Source: Escherichia coli (GTDB lineage: Bacteria > Pseudomonadota > Gammaproteobacteria > Enterobacterales > Enterobacteriaceae). From it: 64,000 nucleotides of DNA. Below, piece by piece: positions 5,341 to 53,584 of this stretch. The notes under the pieces were generated by a model, which saw only the letters and a list, made by a program, of their open reading frames with translations, had not been told where the DNA came from and did no database searches. Position 1 is the stretch's first letter. Each line of letters opens with the position of its first letter. The stretch is taken from NCBI RefSeq assembly GCF_003018235.1, contig NZ_CP027437.1. One strand, given 5' to 3'. The position numbers were made by a program, and so were the translations under genes.

Positions 5341-5964
5341 GTGGGTATGCTTGAAGCCAGAGAGTTACTTTGCGAGCGGGATGAACGAACCTTATTTAGT
5401 GGCTTGTCATTTACGCTGAACGCAGGAGAGTGGGTACAAATCACCGGTAGCAACGGCGCGGGGAAGACAACGCTTCTCCGTTTGCTGACGGGGTTGTCTC
5501 GCCCTGATGCGGGAGACGTTCTCTGGCAAGGGCAGCCCTTGCATCAGGTACGCGACAGCTACCATCAAAACCTGTTATGGATAGGCCATCAGCCGGGGAT
5601 CAAAACCCGGCTGACGGCGTTAGAAAATCTGCACTTTTATCATCGCGATGGCGATACCGCACAATGTCTGGAAGCCCTGGCGCAGGCCGGGCTTGCCGGA
5701 TTCGAAGATATTCCGGTAAATCAACTTTCTGCCGGGCAACAACGCCGCGTCGCTTTAGCGCGTCTGTGGTTGACCCGTGCCACGTTATGGATCCTCGACG
5801 AGCCTTTTACCGCGATTGACGTTAACGGCGTCGATCGTCTGACCCAGCGTATGGCGCAGCATACGGAGCAGAGGGGGATTGTGATTCTGACTACCCACCA
5901 GCCGCTCAACGTTGCTGAAAGTAAAATTCGCCGCATTTCACTGACGCAAACGAGGGCCGCATGA
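5341..5964 (+). CDS. ccmA: Heme exporter ABC ATPase CcmA (207 aa)
   Basis: Walker [12 protein letters not shown] signature [11 protein letters not shown] start assumed. Confidence 0.93.
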
Positions 5965-6623
5965 TGTTCTGGCGCATTTTCCGTCTTGAGCTGCGCGTAG
6001 CGTTTCGCCATAGCGCCGAAATCGCCAACCCGCTGTGGTTCTTCCTGATTGTCATTACCCTTTTTCCGCTCAGTATCGGTCCGGAGCCGCAACTGCTGGC
6101 GCGTATTGCACCGGGCATTATCTGGGTTGCTGCGCTGCTTTCATCCTTGCTGGCGCTGGAACGACTGTTCCGTGACGATTTGCAGGACGGCAGTCTTGAA
6201 CAATTGATGTTGTTGCCGTTACCCTTGCCCGCCGTTGTGCTGGCGAAGGTGATGGCGCACTGGATGGTAACCGGTCTGCCGTTACTCATCCTTTCGCCAC
6301 TGGTAGCAATGCTACTGGGAATGGATGTTTATGGCTGGCAAGTGATGGCGCTGACGCTGCTGCTGGGAACGCCTACGCTTGGCTTTCTCGGTGCACCGGG
6401 CGTGGCGCTGACAGTGGGACTTAAGCGCGGTGGTGTGCTGCTCAGCATACTGGTGTTACCGCTGACTATCCCATTACTCATCTTTGCCACCGCCGCGATG
6501 GACGCGGCTTCCATGCATTTGCCCGTTGACGGGTATCTGGCAATTTTAGGCGCGTTGCTGGCAGGCACCGCGACATTAAGTCCTTTTGCGACGGCGGCAG
6601 CGTTACGAATCAGCATTCAATAA
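5961..6623 (+). CDS. ccmB: Heme exporter permease CcmB (220 aa)
   Basis: Polytopic hydrophobic protein, start overlaps ccmA stop. Confidence 0.95.
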
Positions 6624-10578: not shown

Positions 10579-11627
10579 GGTTTTTATTGGGCGTGCTGAT
10601 GCTGATGATCTCCGGCTCAGCGCTGGCGACCATCGACGTGTTGCAGTTTAAGGATGAAGCGCAGGAGCAGCAGTTCCGGCAACTCACTGAAGAACTACGC
10701 TGCCCGAAATGCCAGAACAACAGCATTGCCGATTCCAACTCGATGATTGCCACCGACCTGCGCCAGAAAGTGTATGAACTGATGCAGGAAGGTAAAAGTA
10801 AAAAAGAGATTGTCGATTATATGGTGGCGCGTTACGGCAACTTCGTCACTTACGATCCGCCGTTAACGCCGCTGACCATGCTGCTGTGGGTGCTTCCGGT
10901 AGTGGCTATTGGCATTGGCGGTTGGGTCATATACGCCCGCTCGCGGCGTCGGGTACGCGTGGTGCCGGAAGCGTTTCCTGAACAAAGCGTGCCGGAAGGT
11001 AAGCGTGCCGGATATGTTGTTTATCTGCCGGGTATTGTGGTGGCGTTAATTGTGGCTGGCGTCAGCTACTACCAGACGGGCAATTATCAGCAGGTGAAAA
11101 TCTGGCAGCAGGCCACGGCACAGGCTCCGGCGTTACTGGACAGGGCGCTGGATCCGAAAGCCGATCCGCTCAACGAAGAAGAGATGTCGCGCCTTGCGCT
11201 GGGGATGCGTACTCAACTGCAAAAAAATCCGGGAGATATAGAAGGCTGGATTATGTTGGGCCGCGTTGGCATGGCGCTGGGTAACGCCAGTATCGCCACC
11301 GATGCATACGCTACTGCGTATCGCCTCGATCCGAAGAACAGCGATGCTGCACTGGGATACGCTGAAGCGTTGACACGTTCATCTGATCCCAACGACAACC
11401 GCCTCGGCGGTGAACTGCTACGTCAGCTGGTGAGAACGGATCATAGTAATATTCGTGTGTTAAGCATGTACGCGTTTAATGCCTTTGAGCAGCAGCGATT
11501 TGGCGAAGCCGTTGCCGCGTGGGAGATGATGTTGAAACTCTTACCTGCCAACGATACTCGCCGTGCGGTGATTGAACGTAGTATCGCGCAGGCGATGCAA
11601 CATTTGTCGCCGCAGGAGAGTAAATAA
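10575..11627 (+). CDS. ccmH: Cytochrome c maturation protein CcmH (350 aa)
   Basis: N-terminal CPKC motif (RCPKCQNNS), C-terminal TPR-like region. Confidence 0.95.
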   Translation: MRFLLGVLMLMISGSALATIDVLQFKDEAQEQQFRQLTEELRCPKCQNNSIADSNSMIATDLRQKVYELMQEGKSKKEIVDYMVARYGNFVTYDPPLTPLTMLLWVLPVVAIGIGGWVIYARSRRRVRVVPEAFPEQSVPEGKRAGYVVYLPGIVVALIVAGVSYYQTGNYQQVKIWQQATAQAPALLDRALDPKADPLNEEEMSRLALGMRTQLQKNPGDIEGWIMLGRVGMALGNASIATDAYATAYRLDPKNSDAALGYAEALTRSSDPNDNRLGGELLRQLVRTDHSNIRVLSMYAFNAFEQQRFGEAVAAWEMMLKLLPANDTRRAVIERSIAQAMQHLSPQESK

Positions 11628-11661
11628 TAAGAGGCCCGATGGTGATGCCATCGGGCTATTT

Positions 11662-12309
11662 TTATTGTGCCCCGCGTTGTTGCAGGAACAGAATGGTGGC
11701 CGCCACGCGTGAGCGGACATTGAGTTTACGCAGCAGATTGCGAATGTGTACTTTTACTGTCTGCTCGGAAATATTCAACACCGAGGCAATCTGTTTATTT
11801 GACAGCCCCTGTGCCAGCTCGTGCAGAACATCCAGCTCGCGCTCCGTCAGCACGCTGAAGGGATCTTCTTCTGCGCCAAACATTTCACGTTCACGTAAGT
11901 ACTGATTGACGCGTTCGCTAAAGACTTTGCTGCCTTTCGCTCCGGCACGAATCGCTTCCAGCAACACTTCCGGGTCGCTGTCTTTCAACAGATAACCGTC
12001 TGCGCCTGCGTCTATCAGCGCAAAGACATCGCTGGAGGCATCTGATACAGTCAGGATAATAATTTGCGCGGTAACGCCATCCCTGCGCAAGGCATTGAGG
12101 GTATCCAGGCCACTCATACCTTTCATATTGAGATCCAGCAAGATCACGTCGATATCCAGTCTATTCGCCAGATCGATCGCGCTCGCGCCGTCGCCCGCTT
12201 CGGCGACCACTTCAAAGCCAGGATCAAGCTCCAGTAACTGACGAACACCGCGTCGCATAAGTGGATGATCATCCACAATCATCACCTGAAAAGGCGTTGC
12301 TTCAGGCAT
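11662..12309 (-). CDS. narP: Nitrate/nitrite response regulator NarP (215 aa)
   Basis: Start moved to MPEATPFQVMIVDDHPLMRRG; receiver domain plus LuxR-type HTH. Confidence 0.93.
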   Translation of the reverse strand: MPEATPFQVMIVDDHPLMRRGVRQLLELDPGFEVVAEAGDGASAIDLANRLDIDVILLDLNMKGMSGLDTLNALRRDGVTAQIIILTVSDASSDVFALIDAGADGYLLKDSDPEVLLEAIRAGAKGSKVFSERVNQYLREREMFGAEEDPFSVLTERELDVLHELAQGLSNKQIASVLNISEQTVKVHIRNLLRKLNVRSRVAATILFLQQRGAQ

Positions 12310-50527: not shown

Positions 50528-52219
50528 ATGAAAACGCTGCTGATTATTGACGCTAATCTCGGTCAGGCACGCGCCTATATGGCGAAGACCCTGCTGGGCG
50601 CGGCGGCGCGAAAAGCAAAACTGGAAATCATCGACAATCCGAACGACGCTGAAATGGCGATTGTTCTCGGTGATTCCATCCAGAACGACAGCGCGCTGAA
50701 CGGTAAAAATGTCTGGCTGGGCGATATTTCCCGGGCAGTTGCGCACCCTGAGCTGTTCCTGAGTGAAGCCAAAGGCCATGCGAAACCTTACACTGCGCCG
50801 GTCGCTGCGACAGCACCGGTTGCCGCCAGCGGTCCGAAACGCGTAGTTGCGGTGACTGCTTGCCCGACTGGCGTAGCACACACCTTTATGGCGGCTGAAG
50901 CCATTGAAACCGAAGCGAAAAAACGTGGCTGGTGGGTGAAAGTTGAAACCCGTGGTTCTGTTGGCGCGGGTAATGCAATCACTCCCGAAGAAGTCGCAGC
51001 AGCGGATCTGGTGATTGTGGCGGCAGATATCGAAGTGGATCTGGCGAAATTTGCTGGTAAACCGATGTATCGTACCTCTACCGGTCTGGCGCTGAAGAAA
51101 ACCGCGCAGGAACTGGATAAAGCGGTTGCTGAAGCAACGCCGTATGAACCGGCGGGCAAAACTCAAACAGCGACCACTGAAGGTAAGAAAGAGAGTGCAG
51201 GCGCTTACCGTCACTTGCTGACGGGCGTCTCTTACATGCTGCCGATGGTCGTTGCAGGTGGTCTGTGTATCGCGCTTTCTTTTGCTTTTGGTATCGAAGC
51301 GTTTAAAGAGCCGGGTACGTTGGCTGCGGCGCTGATGCAGATTGGTGGTGGTTCAGCCTTTGCGTTGATGGTGCCGGTACTGGCAGGTTATATTGCCTTT
51401 TCCATTGCCGATCGTCCGGGTCTCACGCCGGGTCTGATTGGCGGTATGCTGGCGGTCAGCACCGGTTCTGGCTTCATTGGCGGTATTATTGCGGGCTTCC
51501 TGGCTGGTTACATTGCGAAGTTAATCAGTACGCAATTGAAACTGCCGCAGAGTATGGAGGCGCTGAAACCGATCCTGATCATTCCGCTAATTTCCAGTCT
51601 GGTGGTCGGTCTGGCGATGATCTACCTGATCGGTAAACCGGTTGCTGGCATTCTCGAAGGGTTGACTCACTGGCTGCAGACCATGGGGACTGCGAATGCG
51701 GTTCTGCTGGGGGCGATCCTCGGTGGCATGATGTGTACTGACATGGGCGGTCCGGTAAACAAAGCAGCGTACGCGTTCGGTGTGGGTCTGCTGAGTACTC
51801 AAACCTATGGCCCGATGGCGGCGATTATGGCGGCAGGTATGGTGCCACCGCTGGCAATGGGCCTGGCAACAATGGTGGCGCGTCGCAAATTTGACAAAGC
51901 GCAGCAGGAAGGGGGCAAAGCCGCTCTGGTACTGGGACTGTGCTTTATTTCGGAAGGTGCAATTCCGTTTGCTGCTCGTGATCCGATGCGTGTGCTGCCG
52001 TGCTGTATCGTGGGTGGGGCGCTGACTGGCGCAATCTCAATGGCGATTGGTGCGAAACTGATGGCACCGCACGGTGGTCTGTTTGTTCTGCTGATCCCTG
52101 GCGCGATTACGCCGGTATTGGGTTACCTGGTAGCCATTATTGCCGGTACGCTGGTGGCGGGTCTGGCCTATGCCTTCCTGAAACGTCCGGAAGTGGACGC
52201 AGTAGCGAAAGCAGCGTAA
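50528..52219 (+). CDS. fruA: Fructose PTS EIIB'BC component FruA (563 aa)
   Basis: Duplicated IIB region (CPTGVAHT) plus IIC membrane domain. Confidence 0.95.
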   Translation: MKTLLIIDANLGQARAYMAKTLLGAAARKAKLEIIDNPNDAEMAIVLGDSIQNDSALNGKNVWLGDISRAVAHPELFLSEAKGHAKPYTAPVAATAPVAASGPKRVVAVTACPTGVAHTFMAAEAIETEAKKRGWWVKVETRGSVGAGNAITPEEVAAADLVIVAADIEVDLAKFAGKPMYRTSTGLALKKTAQELDKAVAEATPYEPAGKTQTATTEGKKESAGAYRHLLTGVSYMLPMVVAGGLCIALSFAFGIEAFKEPGTLAAALMQIGGGSAFALMVPVLAGYIAFSIADRPGLTPGLIGGMLAVSTGSGFIGGIIAGFLAGYIAKLISTQLKLPQSMEALKPILIIPLISSLVVGLAMIYLIGKPVAGILEGLTHWLQTMGTANAVLLGAILGGMMCTDMGGPVNKAAYAFGVGLLSTQTYGPMAAIMAAGMVPPLAMGLATMVARRKFDKAQQEGGKAALVLGLCFISEGAIPFAARDPMRVLPCCIVGGALTGAISMAIGAKLMAPHGGLFVLLIPGAITPVLGYLVAIIAGTLVAGLAYAFLKRPEVDAVAKAA

Positions 52220-52229
52220 TAAAAGGTGT

Positions 52230-52258
52230 GTTACAGGGCAGAAATTTCCTGCCCTGTA
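52230..52258 (+). terminator. Intrinsic terminator after fruA
   Basis: Hairpin CAGGGCAGAAATTTCCTGCCCTG; a second hairpin plus T-run at 52375-52402. Confidence 0.75.
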
Positions 52259-52541
52259 ACATTTGATGAGCGCAAAGGGAATGACCGGTTTGTGAATGTA
52301 ATTTTATGAATTTAAATGGTTTTATCTTTCAGTAGAAACCTGAAACGTTCATCAAACACTAAGGTTATTTCCTCAAGGGCAGATTAATTTCTGCCCTTTT
52401 TTATTGTTCCTGTTCTGTGCATCCCGTCACAAATTCCCCCTTTTTATAATTCAGGTATTTAATCGCGTTTTGTGAGCCTGCTCAAATCTGCCCATTTTGC
52501 CTCTCTGGCGGTAATTTACTTTACGTAAAACATGCATACTA

Positions 52542-52575
52542 TGAGCACATGTTTAAATATGAACACATGTTTAAA
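52542..52575. promoter_or_regulatory. Tandem 16-bp direct repeats TGA(G/A)CACATGTTTAAA upstream of psuK
   Basis: Two copies 18 bp apart, each containing the palindrome ACATGT; about 70 bp upstream of the start codon. Confidence 0.5.
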
Positions 52576-52642
52576 CCGTCTTTGCAGTATCAATATTCTT
52601 GTGGATTGACAGGGTTGGTAATTTTTTACCAGAGGACGTGCT

Positions 52643-53584
52643 ATGCGCGAAAAGGATTATGTCGTAATTATAGGTTCGGCGAATATTGATGTCGCCGGAT
52701 ATTCACATGAATCATTAAATTATGCGGATTCAAATCCAGGTAAAATAAAATTTACGCCTGGTGGAGTAGGGCGAAATATTGCACAAAACCTAGCGTTGCT
52801 GGGTAACAAAGCCTGGCTACTGAGCGCAGTAGGCAGTGATTTTTATGGTCAATCGCTGCTAACGCAAACCAATCAATCTGGCGTTTATGTCGATAAATGC
52901 CTGATTGTGCCGGGAGAAAATACGTCAAGCTATTTATCATTACTCGATAATACCGGTGAAATGCTGGTTGCTATAAATGACATGAATATTAGCAACGCTA
53001 TTACAGCTGAATATCTCGCACAGCACCGTGAATTTATTCAGAGGGCAAAGGTCATTGTCGCGGACTGTAATATCAGTGAAGAGGCACTGGCATGGATTCT
53101 GGATAATGCCGCCAACGTACCCGTATTTGTCGATCCTGTTTCCGCGTGGAAATGTGTCAAAGTGCGCGCCCGTCTAAATCAAATCCACACTCTCAAGCCA
53201 AACCGCCTTGAAGCGGAAACCCTGAGTGGGATTGCGCTGTCAGGGCGTGAAGATGTGGCAAAAGTTGCTGCCTGGTTCCATCAACATGGCCTGAACCGAC
53301 TGGTATTGAGCATGGGCGGCGATGGCGTTTATTACAGCGATATCAGCGGTGAAAGTGGCTGGTCTGCGCCGATTAAAACCAATGTTATTAATGTTACCGG
53401 AGCGGGCGATGCCATGATGGCGGGGCTTGCTTCGTGTTGGGTAGACGGAATGCCGTTTGCCGAATCTGTTCGTTTCGCACAGGGATGTTCGTCAATGGCG
53501 CTCTCCTGTGAATACACCAATAACCCCGATTTATCGATTGCCAACGTTATATCGTTAGTGGAGAACGCAGAATGTCTGAATTAA
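52643..53584 (+). CDS. psuK: Pseudouridine kinase PsuK/YeiC (313 aa)
   Basis: PfkB/ribokinase family motifs (GAGDAMMAG). Confidence 0.92.
   Translation: MREKDYVVIIGSANIDVAGYSHESLNYADSNPGKIKFTPGGVGRNIAQNLALLGNKAWLLSAVGSDFYGQSLLTQTNQSGVYVDKCLIVPGENTSSYLSLLDNTGEMLVAINDMNISNAITAEYLAQHREFIQRAKVIVADCNISEEALAWILDNAANVPVFVDPVSAWKCVKVRARLNQIHTLKPNRLEAETLSGIALSGREDVAKVAAWFHQHGLNRLVLSMGGDGVYYSDISGESGWSAPIKTNVINVTGAGDAMMAGLASCWVDGMPFAESVRFAQGCSSMALSCEYTNNPDLSIANVISLVENAECLN

What the first reader, a model, noticed from the sequence alone, without database searches (positions are those of the whole stretch)
52542..52575. Tandem 16-bp repeats TGA(G/A)CACATGTTTAAA upstream of psuK
Two near-identical copies, each with the palindromic core ACATGT, lie 18 bp apart in the psuK leader. 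Regular spacing of a palindrome-containing motif suggests a dimeric regulator binding site. I do not recognise it as the consensus of a characterised E. coli regulator, and the neighbouring HTH-kinase paralog YeiI is an obvious candidate binder.
Basis: seen in the sequence. Interest (0 to 1): 0.4.

Follow-up and report, generated by a model that had tools for sequence, protein, structure and literature searches.

The report
Operator pair at the psuK promoter
The two repeats are a deeply conserved pair of palindromic protein-binding sites on the start of the pseudouridine-utilisation operon, most likely the operator of the uncharacterised regulator YeiI, which also explains a promoter mutation seen repeatedly in E. 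coli evolution experiments.

Summary
TATGAGCACATGTTTAAA and TATGAACACATGTTTAAA lie head to tail at 52540-52575. The conserved unit, however, is a 12-bp palindrome, RAACA-NN-TGTTY (52543-52554 and 52561-52572), not a direct repeat. Two such boxes sit exactly 18 bp apart in 36 of 37 Enterobacteriaceae psuK promoters. They directly follow a conserved TTTACT-16-TAnnAT promoter and a CRP-like site at -70.5, so they cover about -6 to +24. That is a repressor position. The same boxes, in the same place, precede psu operons in Yersinia, Serratia, Photorhabdus, Pasteurella, Shewanella, Aliivibrio, Ferrimonas and two unnamed organisms. There the first gene (or a convergent neighbour) encodes a YeiI-like HTH-kinase fusion. 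In Enterobacteriaceae, YeiI keeps the pseudouridine pocket and a near-invariant HTH but carries fixed changes in phosphoryl-transfer motifs. YeiL does not track the boxes. The best reading is that YeiI is a pseudouridine-sensing repressor acting on a weak, CRP-dependent promoter. The recurrent adaptive SNP (-126 A>C; window 52517) turns TTTACT into TTGACT. No binding, start-site or expression experiment exists, and nothing in the searchable literature describes this site or YeiI's function.

The parts
52543..52554 (+). Box 1 (O1): GAGCACATGTTT, a 12-bp palindrome of type RARCA-NN-TGTTY, directly after the -10 hexamer. The inferred transcription start (about 52549) lies at its centre.
   Evidence: Positions 2, 4, 5, 8, 9, 10 and 11 are invariant in 33 non-redundant promoters and the centre dinucleotide varies (CA, TG, CG, TA, GA).
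52555..52560 (+). 6-bp spacer between the boxes (AAATAT). Its sequence is free, its length is fixed, and it is AT-rich.
   Evidence: 23 different spacer sequences in 33 promoters, 74% A+T, length invariant.
52561..52572 (+). Box 2 (O2): GAACACATGTTT, the second palindrome, 18 bp from box 1 (about +13 to +24).
   Evidence: In most genera it reads GAACATGTGCTC, the same palindrome with a flipped centre.
52540..52575 (+).
   Evidence: family D2, 94% identity, spacing 18.
52537..52542 (+). Inferred -10 hexamer, TACTAT.
   Evidence: TAnnAT is conserved directly in front of box 1 in the Enterobacteriaceae. The same abutment is seen with TAAAAC in Yersinia, Serratia and Photorhabdus and with consensus TATAAT in L049. 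No start-site experiment.
52515..52520 (+). Inferred -35 hexamer, TTTACT, 16 bp upstream of the -10. Base 52517 is the site of the recurrent adaptive SNP (K-12 2259422 A>C, -126 from psuK), which gives TTGACT.
   Evidence: TTTACTTT is nearly invariant. SNP mapping, independently confirmed as '2259422 A->C intergenic (-126/+297)' and '(-126/+297)'. The scan tool calls no + strand promoter here; by my count the wild type matches 8 of 12 hexamer positions and the SNP gives 9 of 12.
52471..52486 (+). CRP-like site 1, TGTGAGCCTGCTCAAA, centred at -70.5 from the inferred start (a class I position).
   Evidence: TGTGA-N6-TCAWA at -70.5 in 36 of 37 promoters and at -71.5 in the other.
52416..52431 (+). 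CRP-like site 2, TGTGCATCCCGTCACA, centred at -125.5.
   Evidence: Present with <=2 mismatches at -122.5 to -125.5 in most promoters.
52616..52631 (+). Small hairpin in the inferred 5' UTR, just before the Shine-Dalgarno AGAGGA (52631-52636).
   Evidence: 5 predicted pairs, 4 of them with both-sides-changed substitutions across genera; covariation term only -0.25 kcal/mol.
52643..53584 (+). psuK, pseudouridine kinase (PfkB, no HTH), first gene of psuK-psuG-psuT.
53572..54510 (+). psuG, pseudouridine-5'-phosphate glycosidase.
54604..55854 (+). psuT, nucleoside transporter, interrupted in this window by a nonsense codon (TAC>TAA, Tyr117*, base 54954).
59097..60185 (-). yeiI: winged-HTH (residues 1-48) fused to a PsuK-like PfkB domain (58-348). 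The proposed binder of the two boxes.
   Evidence: Pfam HTH_24 1.2e-10 and PfkB 5e-68; synteny; residue analysis.

Best explanation
The two repeats are a pair of operator palindromes (O1 52543-52554, O2 52561-52572; consensus TGAACA-NN-TGTTCA, centres 18 bp apart). They lie directly downstream of the -10 hexamer of the psuKGT promoter and cover roughly -6 to +24. The promoter is weak (TTTACT-16-TACTAT) and carries a class I-positioned CRP site at -70.5. The most likely binder is YeiI, a dimeric winged-HTH protein whose C-terminal domain is a paralog of pseudouridine kinase. One YeiI dimer would sit on each palindrome and block RNA polymerase binding or promoter escape. Pseudouridine, or its 5'-phosphate, would bind the retained nucleoside pocket and close the beta-clasp dimer, as it does in PsuK. 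That would move the two HTHs and release the DNA. The ancestral state, still seen in Yersinia, Pasteurella, Shewanella and others, is one bifunctional HTH-kinase that heads and autoregulates the operon. In Enterobacteriaceae it split into PsuK (enzyme, no HTH) and YeiI (sensor-regulator). Shown here: the conservation of boxes, spacing and promoter elements; the synteny with HTH-PfkB genes; the residue patterns; and the identity of the adaptive SNP. Inferred: the start site, binding by YeiI, repression, the inducer, and CRP dependence.
For: (1) Footprint: TTTACTTT, a 16-nt spacer, TAnnAT, box 1, 6 nt and box 2 are conserved in 36 species, while the inter-box spacer and outer flanks vary. Spacing is exactly 18 bp in 36 of 37, whereas distance to the ATG ranges from -71 to -241.
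(2) Each box is a palindrome whose centre flips freely between CA, TG, CG and TA. That is expected for a symmetric dimer site and not for a direct repeat. A second E. coli haplotype has GAACATGTGTTT / GAACACGTGCTC.
(3) yeiI lies immediately downstream of psuKGT in most genera. The yeiL-rihB-nupX block is an insertion found in a few.
(4) In eight distant loci the HTH-PfkB fusion is the first gene of a fusion-psuG(-psuT) operon. A matrix trained only on Enterobacteriaceae boxes puts its best hit in the whole ~13-kb locus just upstream of that gene in 7 of 8, with a second box 18-19 bp away (binomial about 3e-15). Two further loci behave the same way. In L049 the arrangement is consensus TTGACT-17-TATAAT followed directly by box 1.
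(5) YeiI in 20 of 20 Enterobacteriaceae orthologs keeps Asn14, Asp16, Ser30, Tyr97, Asn112, Asn143 and Lys170 (the pseudouridine contacts in PMC9061257) and a near-invariant HTH. It has fixed changes N187T, G255D, N250D and M114T. PsuK and all eight fusions keep the canonical residues. In L050 the HTH paralog has lost the TLKPN and GAGD motifs altogether but keeps the HTH.
(6) PsuK is a beta-clasp dimer that closes on pseudouridine binding.
(7) The same SNP at -126 arose in mouse gut, long-term stationary phase and laboratory evolution, and changes TTTACT to TTGACT. This supports the promoter assignment.
(8) A CRP-like site lies at -70.5 in 36 of 37 promoters and at -71.5 in the other.
Against: No experiment shows YeiI binding DNA, the start site, or repression. 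Every species examined has both the boxes and a YeiI-type gene, so there is no natural negative control. In the evolution experiments other repressors (frlR, srlR, dgoR, glpR) are repeatedly knocked out, but no yeiI mutation appears in the held, partly truncated supplements. That is unexpected for a simple repressor unless CRP dependence or the weak -35, not repression, limits expression. An 18-bp spacing puts the two sites on different faces of the helix, which is not the usual cooperative geometry. No box lies upstream of yeiI or nfo in the window. YeiI keeps the catalytic Asp256 and Lys185, so residual kinase activity is not excluded. The RecA-dependent abundance of PsuG and PsuK under ciprofloxacin is not explained by this model.
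Confidence: 0.7

Rival explanations
1. The boxes are bound by a different transcription factor that is not encoded at the locus, for example a global or nucleoside-related regulator. YeiI would then be linked to the operon for another reason, such as a second kinase activity.
For: There is no direct evidence for YeiI binding. No yeiI loss-of-function mutations appear in evolution experiments that readily knock out other repressors. PsuG and PsuK levels depend on RecA under ciprofloxacin, which hints at an input I cannot place. The box shape GAAC-N4-GTTC is shared with other regulator families (from memory).
Against: The box travels with HTH-PfkB genes across Enterobacteriaceae, Yersiniaceae, Morganellaceae, Pasteurellaceae, Shewanellaceae, Vibrionaceae and two unrelated organisms (GC 42% and 63%), and no other regulator gene is common to these loci. 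The HTH of YeiI is under strong constraint while its catalytic motifs have drifted. No E. coli LexA box (CTGT-N8-ACAG, <=1 mismatch) occurs in any of 37 promoters.
Confidence: 0.13
2. YeiL, the CRP/FNR-family regulator encoded just downstream of psuT in E. coli, binds the boxes. TGAACA-NN-TGTTCA has the geometry of the PrfA box TTAACA-NN-TGTTAA.
For: yeiL is adjacent in this window (55922-56620, minus strand) and has cNMP-binding and Crp-type HTH domains. The resemblance to the PrfA box is recalled from memory, not tested.
Against: yeiL, rihB and nupX are missing from the locus in most genera that keep the boxes. Named YeiL homologs are patchy, and none among the top 120 comes from Klebsiella, Enterobacter, Leclercia, Yersinia, Serratia, Pasteurella, Shewanella or Vibrio. 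The yeiL-rihB divergent region has no such box and carries a different palindrome.
Confidence: 0.04
3. The boxes act in the RNA. Box 1 pairs with box 2 to form a 12-bp hairpin in the psuK 5' UTR that affects stability, termination or translation.
For: Two copies of one palindrome are necessarily complementary. Inter-box pairing is 82% Watson-Crick on the arms and 91% on the centres when G-U is allowed, within Enterobacteriaceae. In the fusion operons box 2 lies next to the start codon.
Against: The conserved -35 and -10, the adaptive -35 SNP and the L049 consensus promoter all place the start inside box 1, so its left arm would not be transcribed. This E. coli haplotype has CA/CA centres, giving two mismatches. 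In distant taxa the centres are not complementary either (AA/GG, AA/AA, CA/AG). Box 2's usual right arm TGCTC mismatches box 1's left arm GAACA with no compensation. There is no Rfam match.
Confidence: 0.05
4. It is a recent, functionless 18-bp tandem duplication.
For: 17 of 18 identity between adjacent copies in this haplotype.
Against: Both boxes and their spacing are conserved across genera and families, including lineages where the two copies differ in sequence.
Confidence: 0.01

Closest known systems
ROK-family repressors (NagC, Mlc, B. subtilis XylR) and their operators
   Same: A DNA-binding HTH is fused to a sugar-kinase-fold domain that serves as ligand sensor, with active kinase paralogs in the same genome. 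They bind palindromic operators overlapping catabolic promoters that are also CRP-dependent. (From general knowledge.)
   Different: ROK proteins have the ASKHA fold, whereas YeiI has the ribokinase/PfkB fold. The operator sequences are unrelated. For YeiI neither binding nor loss of catalysis has been demonstrated.
NadR of Enterobacteria (HTH + NMN adenylyltransferase + ribosylnicotinamide kinase)
   Same: A regulator built from an HTH and nucleoside/nucleotide-metabolising enzyme domains, acting on palindromes rich in TGTTTA/TAAACA. Some lineages keep only the enzyme part. (From memory.)
   Different: The enzyme folds differ. The NadR box as I recall it is TGTTTA-N6-TAAACA, while the inner arms here are 4 bp apart and all four arms are conserved. 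The regulon is unrelated.
CRP/CytR- and DeoR-controlled nucleoside catabolic promoters (deo, udp, cdd, nupC, nupG)
   Same: These are nucleoside utilisation or transport genes with weak -35 boxes, one or two CRP sites, and a specific repressor. Here two CRP-like sites lie about 53-55 bp apart.
   Different: I saw no CytR-type TTGCAA motifs by eye (not searched formally). The CRP sites sit at -70.5 and about -123, not at -41/-93, and the repressor sites lie at +1/+19, not between the CRP sites. CRP dependence is untested.
PrfA box / CRP-FNR family sites
   Same: A 14-bp palindrome with 6-2-6 geometry and the shared core AACA-NN-TGTT.
   Different: The only local CRP/FNR protein, YeiL, does not co-occur with the boxes.
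Gram-positive LexA 'Cheo box' GAAC-N4-GTTC
   Same: The same core pattern as RAAC-N4-GTTY. PsuG and PsuK abundance is RecA-dependent under ciprofloxacin.
   Different: E. coli LexA recognises CTGT-N8-ACAG, and that pattern is absent from all 37 promoters. The resemblance is probably coincidental.

Membership tests
Promoter-overlapping dual palindromic repressor operator | Two-fold symmetric half-sites conserved, with free central and inter-site bases | tested here: met
   AAC/GTT arms invariant or nearly so; centre dinucleotide and 6-bp spacer variable.
Promoter-overlapping dual palindromic repressor operator | Sites overlap the core promoter or transcription start | tested here: inconclusive
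   Box 1 abuts a conserved -10 that lies 16-17 bp after a conserved -35. An adaptive SNP improves that -35, and L049 has the same layout with a consensus promoter. No experimental start site was found.
Promoter-overlapping dual palindromic repressor operator | A cognate protein binds and lowers transcription | not testable with these tools
   Needs EMSA or footprinting and a yeiI deletion.
Regulon site of YeiI-type HTH-PfkB proteins (not a described family) | Motif co-localises with the HTH-PfkB gene across distant taxa | tested here: met
   The best matrix hit of the locus lies at the psu promoter in 9 of 10 distant loci, all of which encode an HTH-PfkB protein in or beside the operon.
Regulon site of YeiI-type HTH-PfkB proteins (not a described family) | The protein has a conserved DNA-binding domain and a conserved ligand pocket | tested here: met
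   HTH_24 E=1.2e-10; HTH nearly invariant in 20 orthologs; 7 of 8 pseudouridine-contact residues retained.
Regulon site of YeiI-type HTH-PfkB proteins (not a described family) | Boxes absent where the protein is absent | not tested
   No Enterobacterales psu locus lacking a YeiI-type gene was found among the loci fetched.
CRP/FNR-family (YeiL) binding site | Co-occurrence of site and regulator; a site in the regulator's own divergent promoter | tested here: not met
   yeiL is absent from most loci that have boxes and its distribution is patchy. The yeiL-rihB spacer has no box.
E. coli LexA SOS box | CTGT-N8-ACAG near the promoter | tested here: not met
   No match with <=1 mismatch from -140 to +40 in 37 promoters.
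Class I CRP-dependent promoter | A TGTGA-N6-TCACA-like site centred near -61.5, -71.5 or similar, and conserved | tested here: met
   TGTGA-N6-TCAWA (1-2 mismatches) at -70.5 in 36 of 37 and at -71.5 in the other, relative to the inferred start.
Class I CRP-dependent promoter | Expression depends on cAMP-CRP | not testable with these tools
   Two literature searches returned only four papers holding psuK or yeiC together with CRP, and none is about CRP control of psuK judging by title and abstract.
Direct-repeat (response-regulator or iteron-type) site | Head-to-tail orientation of the units conserved | tested here: not met
   In most genera the two boxes have opposite centres (CA/TG in 18 of 33). 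The direct-repeat look occurs only in this Escherichia haplotype.
Known cis-regulatory RNA (Rfam) | Match to a covariance model at or near its gathering score | tested here: not met
   Best hits score 15.8-22.1 bits against thresholds of 64-100 bits.

The most novel reading that the evidence does not exclude
YeiI-type proteins are a previously unrecognised class of one-component regulator in which a ribokinase-fold (PfkB) pseudouridine kinase domain is the sensor. The ancestral form is a bifunctional enzyme-repressor that autoregulates a kinase-psuG-psuT operon through two RAAC-N4-GTTY palindromes fixed 18-19 bp apart at the transcription start. In Enterobacteriaceae, and independently or anciently in at least one other lineage (L050), it split into a pure enzyme (PsuK) and a pseudo-kinase regulator (YeiI). 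The widely recurring -126 A>C 'psuKp' mutation is a -35 up-mutation that frees the operon from CRP dependence while leaving this control in place.
Probability: 0.5. Interest if true: 0.7.

Novelty: new variant of a known kind. Interest (0 to 1): 0.6.

Why it matters
It would give a function to YeiI, a conserved E. coli protein still listed as uncharacterised in 2022 and 2025. It would also supply the missing regulatory logic of pseudouridine catabolism. It offers a concrete mechanism, a -35 up-mutation in a repressed and probably CRP-dependent promoter, for a single-nucleotide change that sweeps in mouse-gut colonisation, long-term stationary phase and laboratory evolution, whose mode of action those papers left open. 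It also provides a clean example of a bifunctional enzyme-regulator splitting into an enzyme and a pseudo-enzyme sensor. Finally, a pseudouridine-responsive operator and repressor pair could be useful as a biosensor for pseudouridine production strains.

Tried and rejected
- **Known E. coli regulator consensus.** From memory I compared the boxes with CRP, FNR, LexA, NadR, PhoP, TorR, ArcA, KdgR, Cra/LacI-family, ArgR, TyrR, NsrR and the mar box. None fits in both sequence and spacing. Only the LexA and CRP patterns were scanned formally.
- **Promoter scan.** The tool finds no + strand promoter in 52200-52700. By my count the wild-type hexamers match 8 of 12 positions.
- **Rfam.** Nothing near threshold in the spacer.
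- **RNA hairpin versus DNA palindrome by pair counting.** The two cannot be separated within Enterobacteriaceae, because two copies of a palindrome are mutually complementary. The argument rests instead on start-site position and on the centres in distant taxa.
- **Third inverted partial copy (TAAAACATGCA, 52526-52536).** The aAAAaca.GC block in the promoter spacer is moderately conserved, but it is not a box by the matrix, so I did not pursue it.
- **Direction of the psuK expression change caused by the SNP.** It is in Supplementary Data 16 of PMC9509342, which is truncated in the held copy, and is absent from the bioRxiv text.
- **Within-species co-loss of psuK and yeiI.** Not informative. 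yeiI is in 5,422 of 5,426 genomes. The roughly 1,200 genomes with no psuK match may carry the divergent haplotype (PsuK 88% identical at protein level in the one genome examined), which megablast could miss, and need not lack the gene.
- **Not attempted.** A structure prediction of YeiI, because a monomer model would not settle the dimer-DNA geometry.

Full report
**Context**

The window is an Escherichia coli chromosome segment in the order fruB-fruK-fruA | psuK-psuG-psuT | yeiL(-) | rihB-nupX | yeiI(-)-nfo(-)-yeiH(-) | yeiE. The finding lies in the 423-bp spacer between fruA (ends 52219) and psuK (ATG at 52643).

**1. The observation**

The sequence is as reported. The repeat finder shows that the unit is really 18 bp and that the two copies are directly head to tail: TATGAGCACATGTTTAAA (52540-52557) and TATGAACACATGTTTAAA (52558-52575), 17 of 18 identical. 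No other copy with fewer than 3 mismatches exists in the window. K-12 MG1655 is identical across the element.

**2. What the conserved unit is**

I fetched 36 orthologous psuK loci from one genome per species: Escherichia, Citrobacter, Klebsiella, Enterobacter, Buttiauxella, Kluyvera, Kosakonia, Phytobacter, Leclercia, Pseudocitrobacter and Entomohabitans.

- In all but one degenerate case (L038), two matches to GAACANNTGTTC lie exactly 18 bp apart upstream of psuK. Their distance to the ATG, by contrast, ranges from -71 to -241.
- I allowed spacings from 14 to 23 bp, and only 18 occurs.
- In about 514 kb scanned, the only other pair is one weak hit inside the yeiE coding region.
- In each box, positions 2, 4, 5, 8, 9 and 11 are invariant. 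The central dinucleotide varies (CA, TG, CG, TA) and so does the 6-bp spacer, which is 74% A+T.

In most genera, box 1 has a CA centre and box 2 a TG centre, so the two are inverted copies. The direct-repeat look arises only because both centres are CA in this Escherichia haplotype. A second haplotype, seen in E. coli GN02350, reads GAACATGTGTTT / GAACACGTGCTC. That genome also carries a yeiI allele only about 80% identical to the window's, an allele class found in about 2,000 E. coli genomes. A palindrome whose asymmetric centre flips freely is what a symmetric protein dimer site predicts.

**3. Where it sits**

An alignment anchored on box 1 gives a sharp footprint: TTTACTTT, 16 nt, TAnnAT, box 1 directly abutting, 6 nt, box 2, then TAATAA. 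Conservation collapses on both sides.

I read TTTACT (52515-52520) as the -35 box and TACTAT (52537-52542) as the -10 box. That puts the start near 52549, at the centre of box 1. Three independent observations support this.

- **A recurrent adaptive SNP.** Evolution papers report psuK/fruA A>C at NC_000913.2 position 2257444 in mouse gut. Using four srlR coding mutations from the same paper, I fixed the .2-to-.3 offset at 1978. This gives 2259422, which is -126 from psuK and window base 52517, T>G on the psuK strand: TTTACT becomes TTGACT. Two other studies list the identical change explicitly: '2259422 A->C intergenic (-126/+297)', the only mutation shared by both laboratory-evolved lines, and '(-126/+297) C' in 3 of 4 long-term stationary-phase populations. 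The TTGACT allele is present in only 5 of 4,147 E. coli genomes at full identity. I recognise four of them as laboratory K-12 derivatives (ER1821R, ER2683, S17-1, ST18).
- **A conserved CRP-like site.** TGTGA-N6-TCAWA lies at exactly -70.5 from the inferred start in 36 of 37 promoters and at -71.5 in the other. This is a class I position. A second site lies near -123 in most.
- **Distant organisms keep the same layout.** Yersinia, Serratia and Photorhabdus have TTTACT-17-TAAAAC-box 1-6-box 2. An unrelated GC-rich organism (L049) has consensus TTGACT-17-TATAAT followed directly by box 1.

The boxes therefore cover about -6 to +24, which is a repressor position. The promoter scan tool calls no promoter here. 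By my count the wild type matches 8 of 12 hexamer positions and the SNP raises this to 9.

**4. Who binds**

- **YeiI is the regulator-like gene that stays with the operon.** It has a winged HTH (HTH_24, E=1.2e-10, residues 1-48) fused to a PfkB domain (E=5e-68). In most genera yeiI lies immediately downstream of psuKGT and convergent to it. The yeiL-rihB-nupX block is an insertion limited to Escherichia, one Citrobacter amalonaticus, Phytobacter diazotrophicus and Entomohabitans.
- **Distant homologs head the operon.** YeiI homologs with the same two domains occur across Gammaproteobacteria. In Yersinia, Serratia, Pasteurella, Shewanella, Photorhabdus, Xenorhabdus, Aliivibrio and Ferrimonas, the fusion gene is the first gene of a fusion-psuG(-psuT) operon.
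- **The boxes follow it.** A weight matrix trained only on Enterobacteriaceae boxes puts its best hit in the whole ~13-kb locus within 40 bp upstream of the fusion gene in 7 of 8 loci. A second box lies 18-19 bp away in most. Chance placement has a probability of about 3e-15 under a simple binomial. Two still more distant loci behave the same way. One of them, L050, independently shows the Enterobacteriaceae layout (PfkB-only psuK-psuG-psuT, convergent to an HTH-PfkB gene), with the boxes in front of the PfkB-only psuK.
- **YeiL does not track the boxes.** Named homologs are patchy, and none among the top 120 comes from Klebsiella, Enterobacter, Leclercia, Yersinia, Serratia, Pasteurella, Shewanella or Vibrio. 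The yeiL-rihB spacer has no such box.

**5. How it probably works**

PsuK is a beta-clasp dimer that undergoes a large closure when pseudouridine binds. The contacts are Asn14, Asp16, Ser30, Tyr97, Asn112, Met114, Asn143 and Lys170, with Asp256 as catalytic base (PMC9061257).

| Residue class | YeiI (20 of 20 Enterobacteriaceae orthologs) | PsuK and the eight distant fusions |
|---|---|---|
| Pseudouridine contacts | 7 of 8 kept; Met114 to Thr | all kept |
| Asp256, Lys185, Glu190 | kept | kept |
| Asn187 (NxxE motif) | Thr | Asn |
| Gly255 (GAGD anion hole) | Asp | Gly |
| Asn250 | Asp | Asn |
| Asp29 | Ala, Val or Ser | Asp |
| HTH domain | nearly invariant | present in the fusions, absent from PsuK |

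In L050 the HTH paralog has lost the TLKPN and GAGD motifs altogether while keeping the HTH.

I infer an ancestral bifunctional kinase-repressor that split into an enzyme (PsuK) and a pseudouridine-sensing regulator (YeiI). One dimer would bind each palindrome. Ligand-driven closure of the dimer would move the HTHs and release the DNA.

CRP dependence would explain two things: why the weak -35 box is kept in nature, and why selection in glucose-rich or laboratory settings finds a -35 up-mutation and not loss of the repressor.

**6. Rivals**

- **An RNA hairpin formed by box 1 and box 2.** Pair counting cannot exclude this within Enterobacteriaceae. It is disfavoured because the inferred start lies inside box 1, because this haplotype has CA/CA centres, because centres are non-complementary in distant taxa, and because Rfam finds nothing.
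- **LexA.** It is excluded at the sequence level, even though PsuG and PsuK are strongly RecA-dependent under ciprofloxacin. That observation remains unexplained.
- **A functionless duplication.** Conservation excludes it.
- **An unidentified trans-acting factor.** This remains possible, because every species examined has both the boxes and a YeiI-type gene, and because no yeiI knock-outs appear in the evolution data held.

**7. Known or new**

Literature searches found no description of the site, of a psuK start site, of CRP control, or of a function for YeiI. YeiI is called uncharacterised in 2022 and 2025. No solved structure includes the HTH.

The logic is ordinary: a ligand-released repressor on a CRP-dependent catabolic promoter. 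The regulator type, an HTH fused to a PfkB-fold sensor, appears not to have been described, as does its operator.

**Verdict**

The feature is real and functional, and it was correctly flagged. All evidence is comparative, so binding, repression, the inducer and the start site remain to be shown.

Noticed in passing
window 52517 (K-12 NC_000913.3 2259422): The single base whose A>C change (T>G on the psuK strand) recurs in mouse-gut, long-term stationary-phase and laboratory-evolution experiments lies in the inferred -35 box and makes it TTGACT. Only 5 of 4,147 complete E. coli genomes match this allele exactly, and I recognise four of them as laboratory K-12 derivatives.
   Followed up: yes
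window 52471-52486 and 52416-52431: Two CRP-like sites. The first is at -70.5 from the inferred psuK start in 36 of 37 promoters and at -71.5 in the other; the second is near -123 in most. The searchable literature has no report of CRP control of psuK.
   Followed up: partly
window 54952-54954 (psuT): psuT carries a TAC>TAA nonsense codon (Tyr117*) relative to strain PCN033 and K-12, splitting it into 116-aa and 297-aa ORFs. The transporter is probably inactive in this strain, unless this is a sequencing error.
   Followed up: partly
window 52616-52631: A small hairpin (GGTAA-TTTT-TTACC) directly before the psuK Shine-Dalgarno sequence. Across genera, 4 of its 5 pairs show both-sides-changed substitutions (GGCA/TGCC, AGC/GCT, GGAC/GTCC). 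Function unknown.
   Followed up: partly
window 52229-52261 and 52375-52398: Two terminator-like hairpins sharing the core AGGGCAGA..TCTGCCCT follow fruA. The second has a strong T-run and lies 140 bp further on. Nothing in Rfam matches the stretch between them.
   Followed up: partly
PMC11039860 (proteomics), bearing on window 52643-54510: PsuG and PsuK are among the proteins most depleted (log2FC down to -6) in recA deletion versus wild type under ciprofloxacin, in 4 of 6 E. coli strains, alongside DinI, YebG and RecN. No E. coli LexA box is present at the promoter. Unexplained; possibly indirect induction by pseudouridine released from RNA turnover.
   Followed up: partly
L048 (E. coli GN02350) 5486-5688 and 11001-12089: E. 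coli carries two deeply divergent yeiI alleles: about 2,012 genomes have one only ~80% identical at DNA level. In the one such genome examined (GN02350), PsuK is 88% identical at protein level, the psuK promoter resembles that of E. albertii (-35 TTTACA) and nupX is deleted. This suggests an old recombination or introgression.
   Followed up: partly
L040 and L041, positions 6001-6027: The annotated start codons of the Yersinia and Serratia HTH-kinase genes (372 aa) are the ATG inside box 1. The true start is probably 27 nt downstream (MTSREKQIL..., 363 aa as in other genera).
   Followed up: partly
L040, L041, L044, L045, about 50-70 bp upstream of the -35: A conserved CTTACGATC...TC(C/T)CA(A/C) block lies upstream of the psu promoter in Yersinia, Serratia, Photorhabdus and Xenorhabdus. 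It is unidentified and occupies the place that the CRP site holds in Enterobacteriaceae.
   Followed up: no
window 56635-56650: The yeiL-rihB divergent spacer contains its own palindrome, TATGAGAtTTCTCATA. It is a candidate site for YeiL or another regulator and is unrelated to the psuK boxes.
   Followed up: no
one search hit list (P0230-P0240): YeiL has homologs at about 58% identity in Enterococcus species, which is unusually close for a Gram-negative to Gram-positive comparison and suggests horizontal transfer of the yeiL module.
   Followed up: no
window 62489-62518 (inside yeiE): The only other pair of box-like 12-mers 18 bp apart in about 514 kb scanned (GAACAGGCGATC / GAACAACTGTTT). 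It lies in coding sequence and is probably chance.
   Followed up: no
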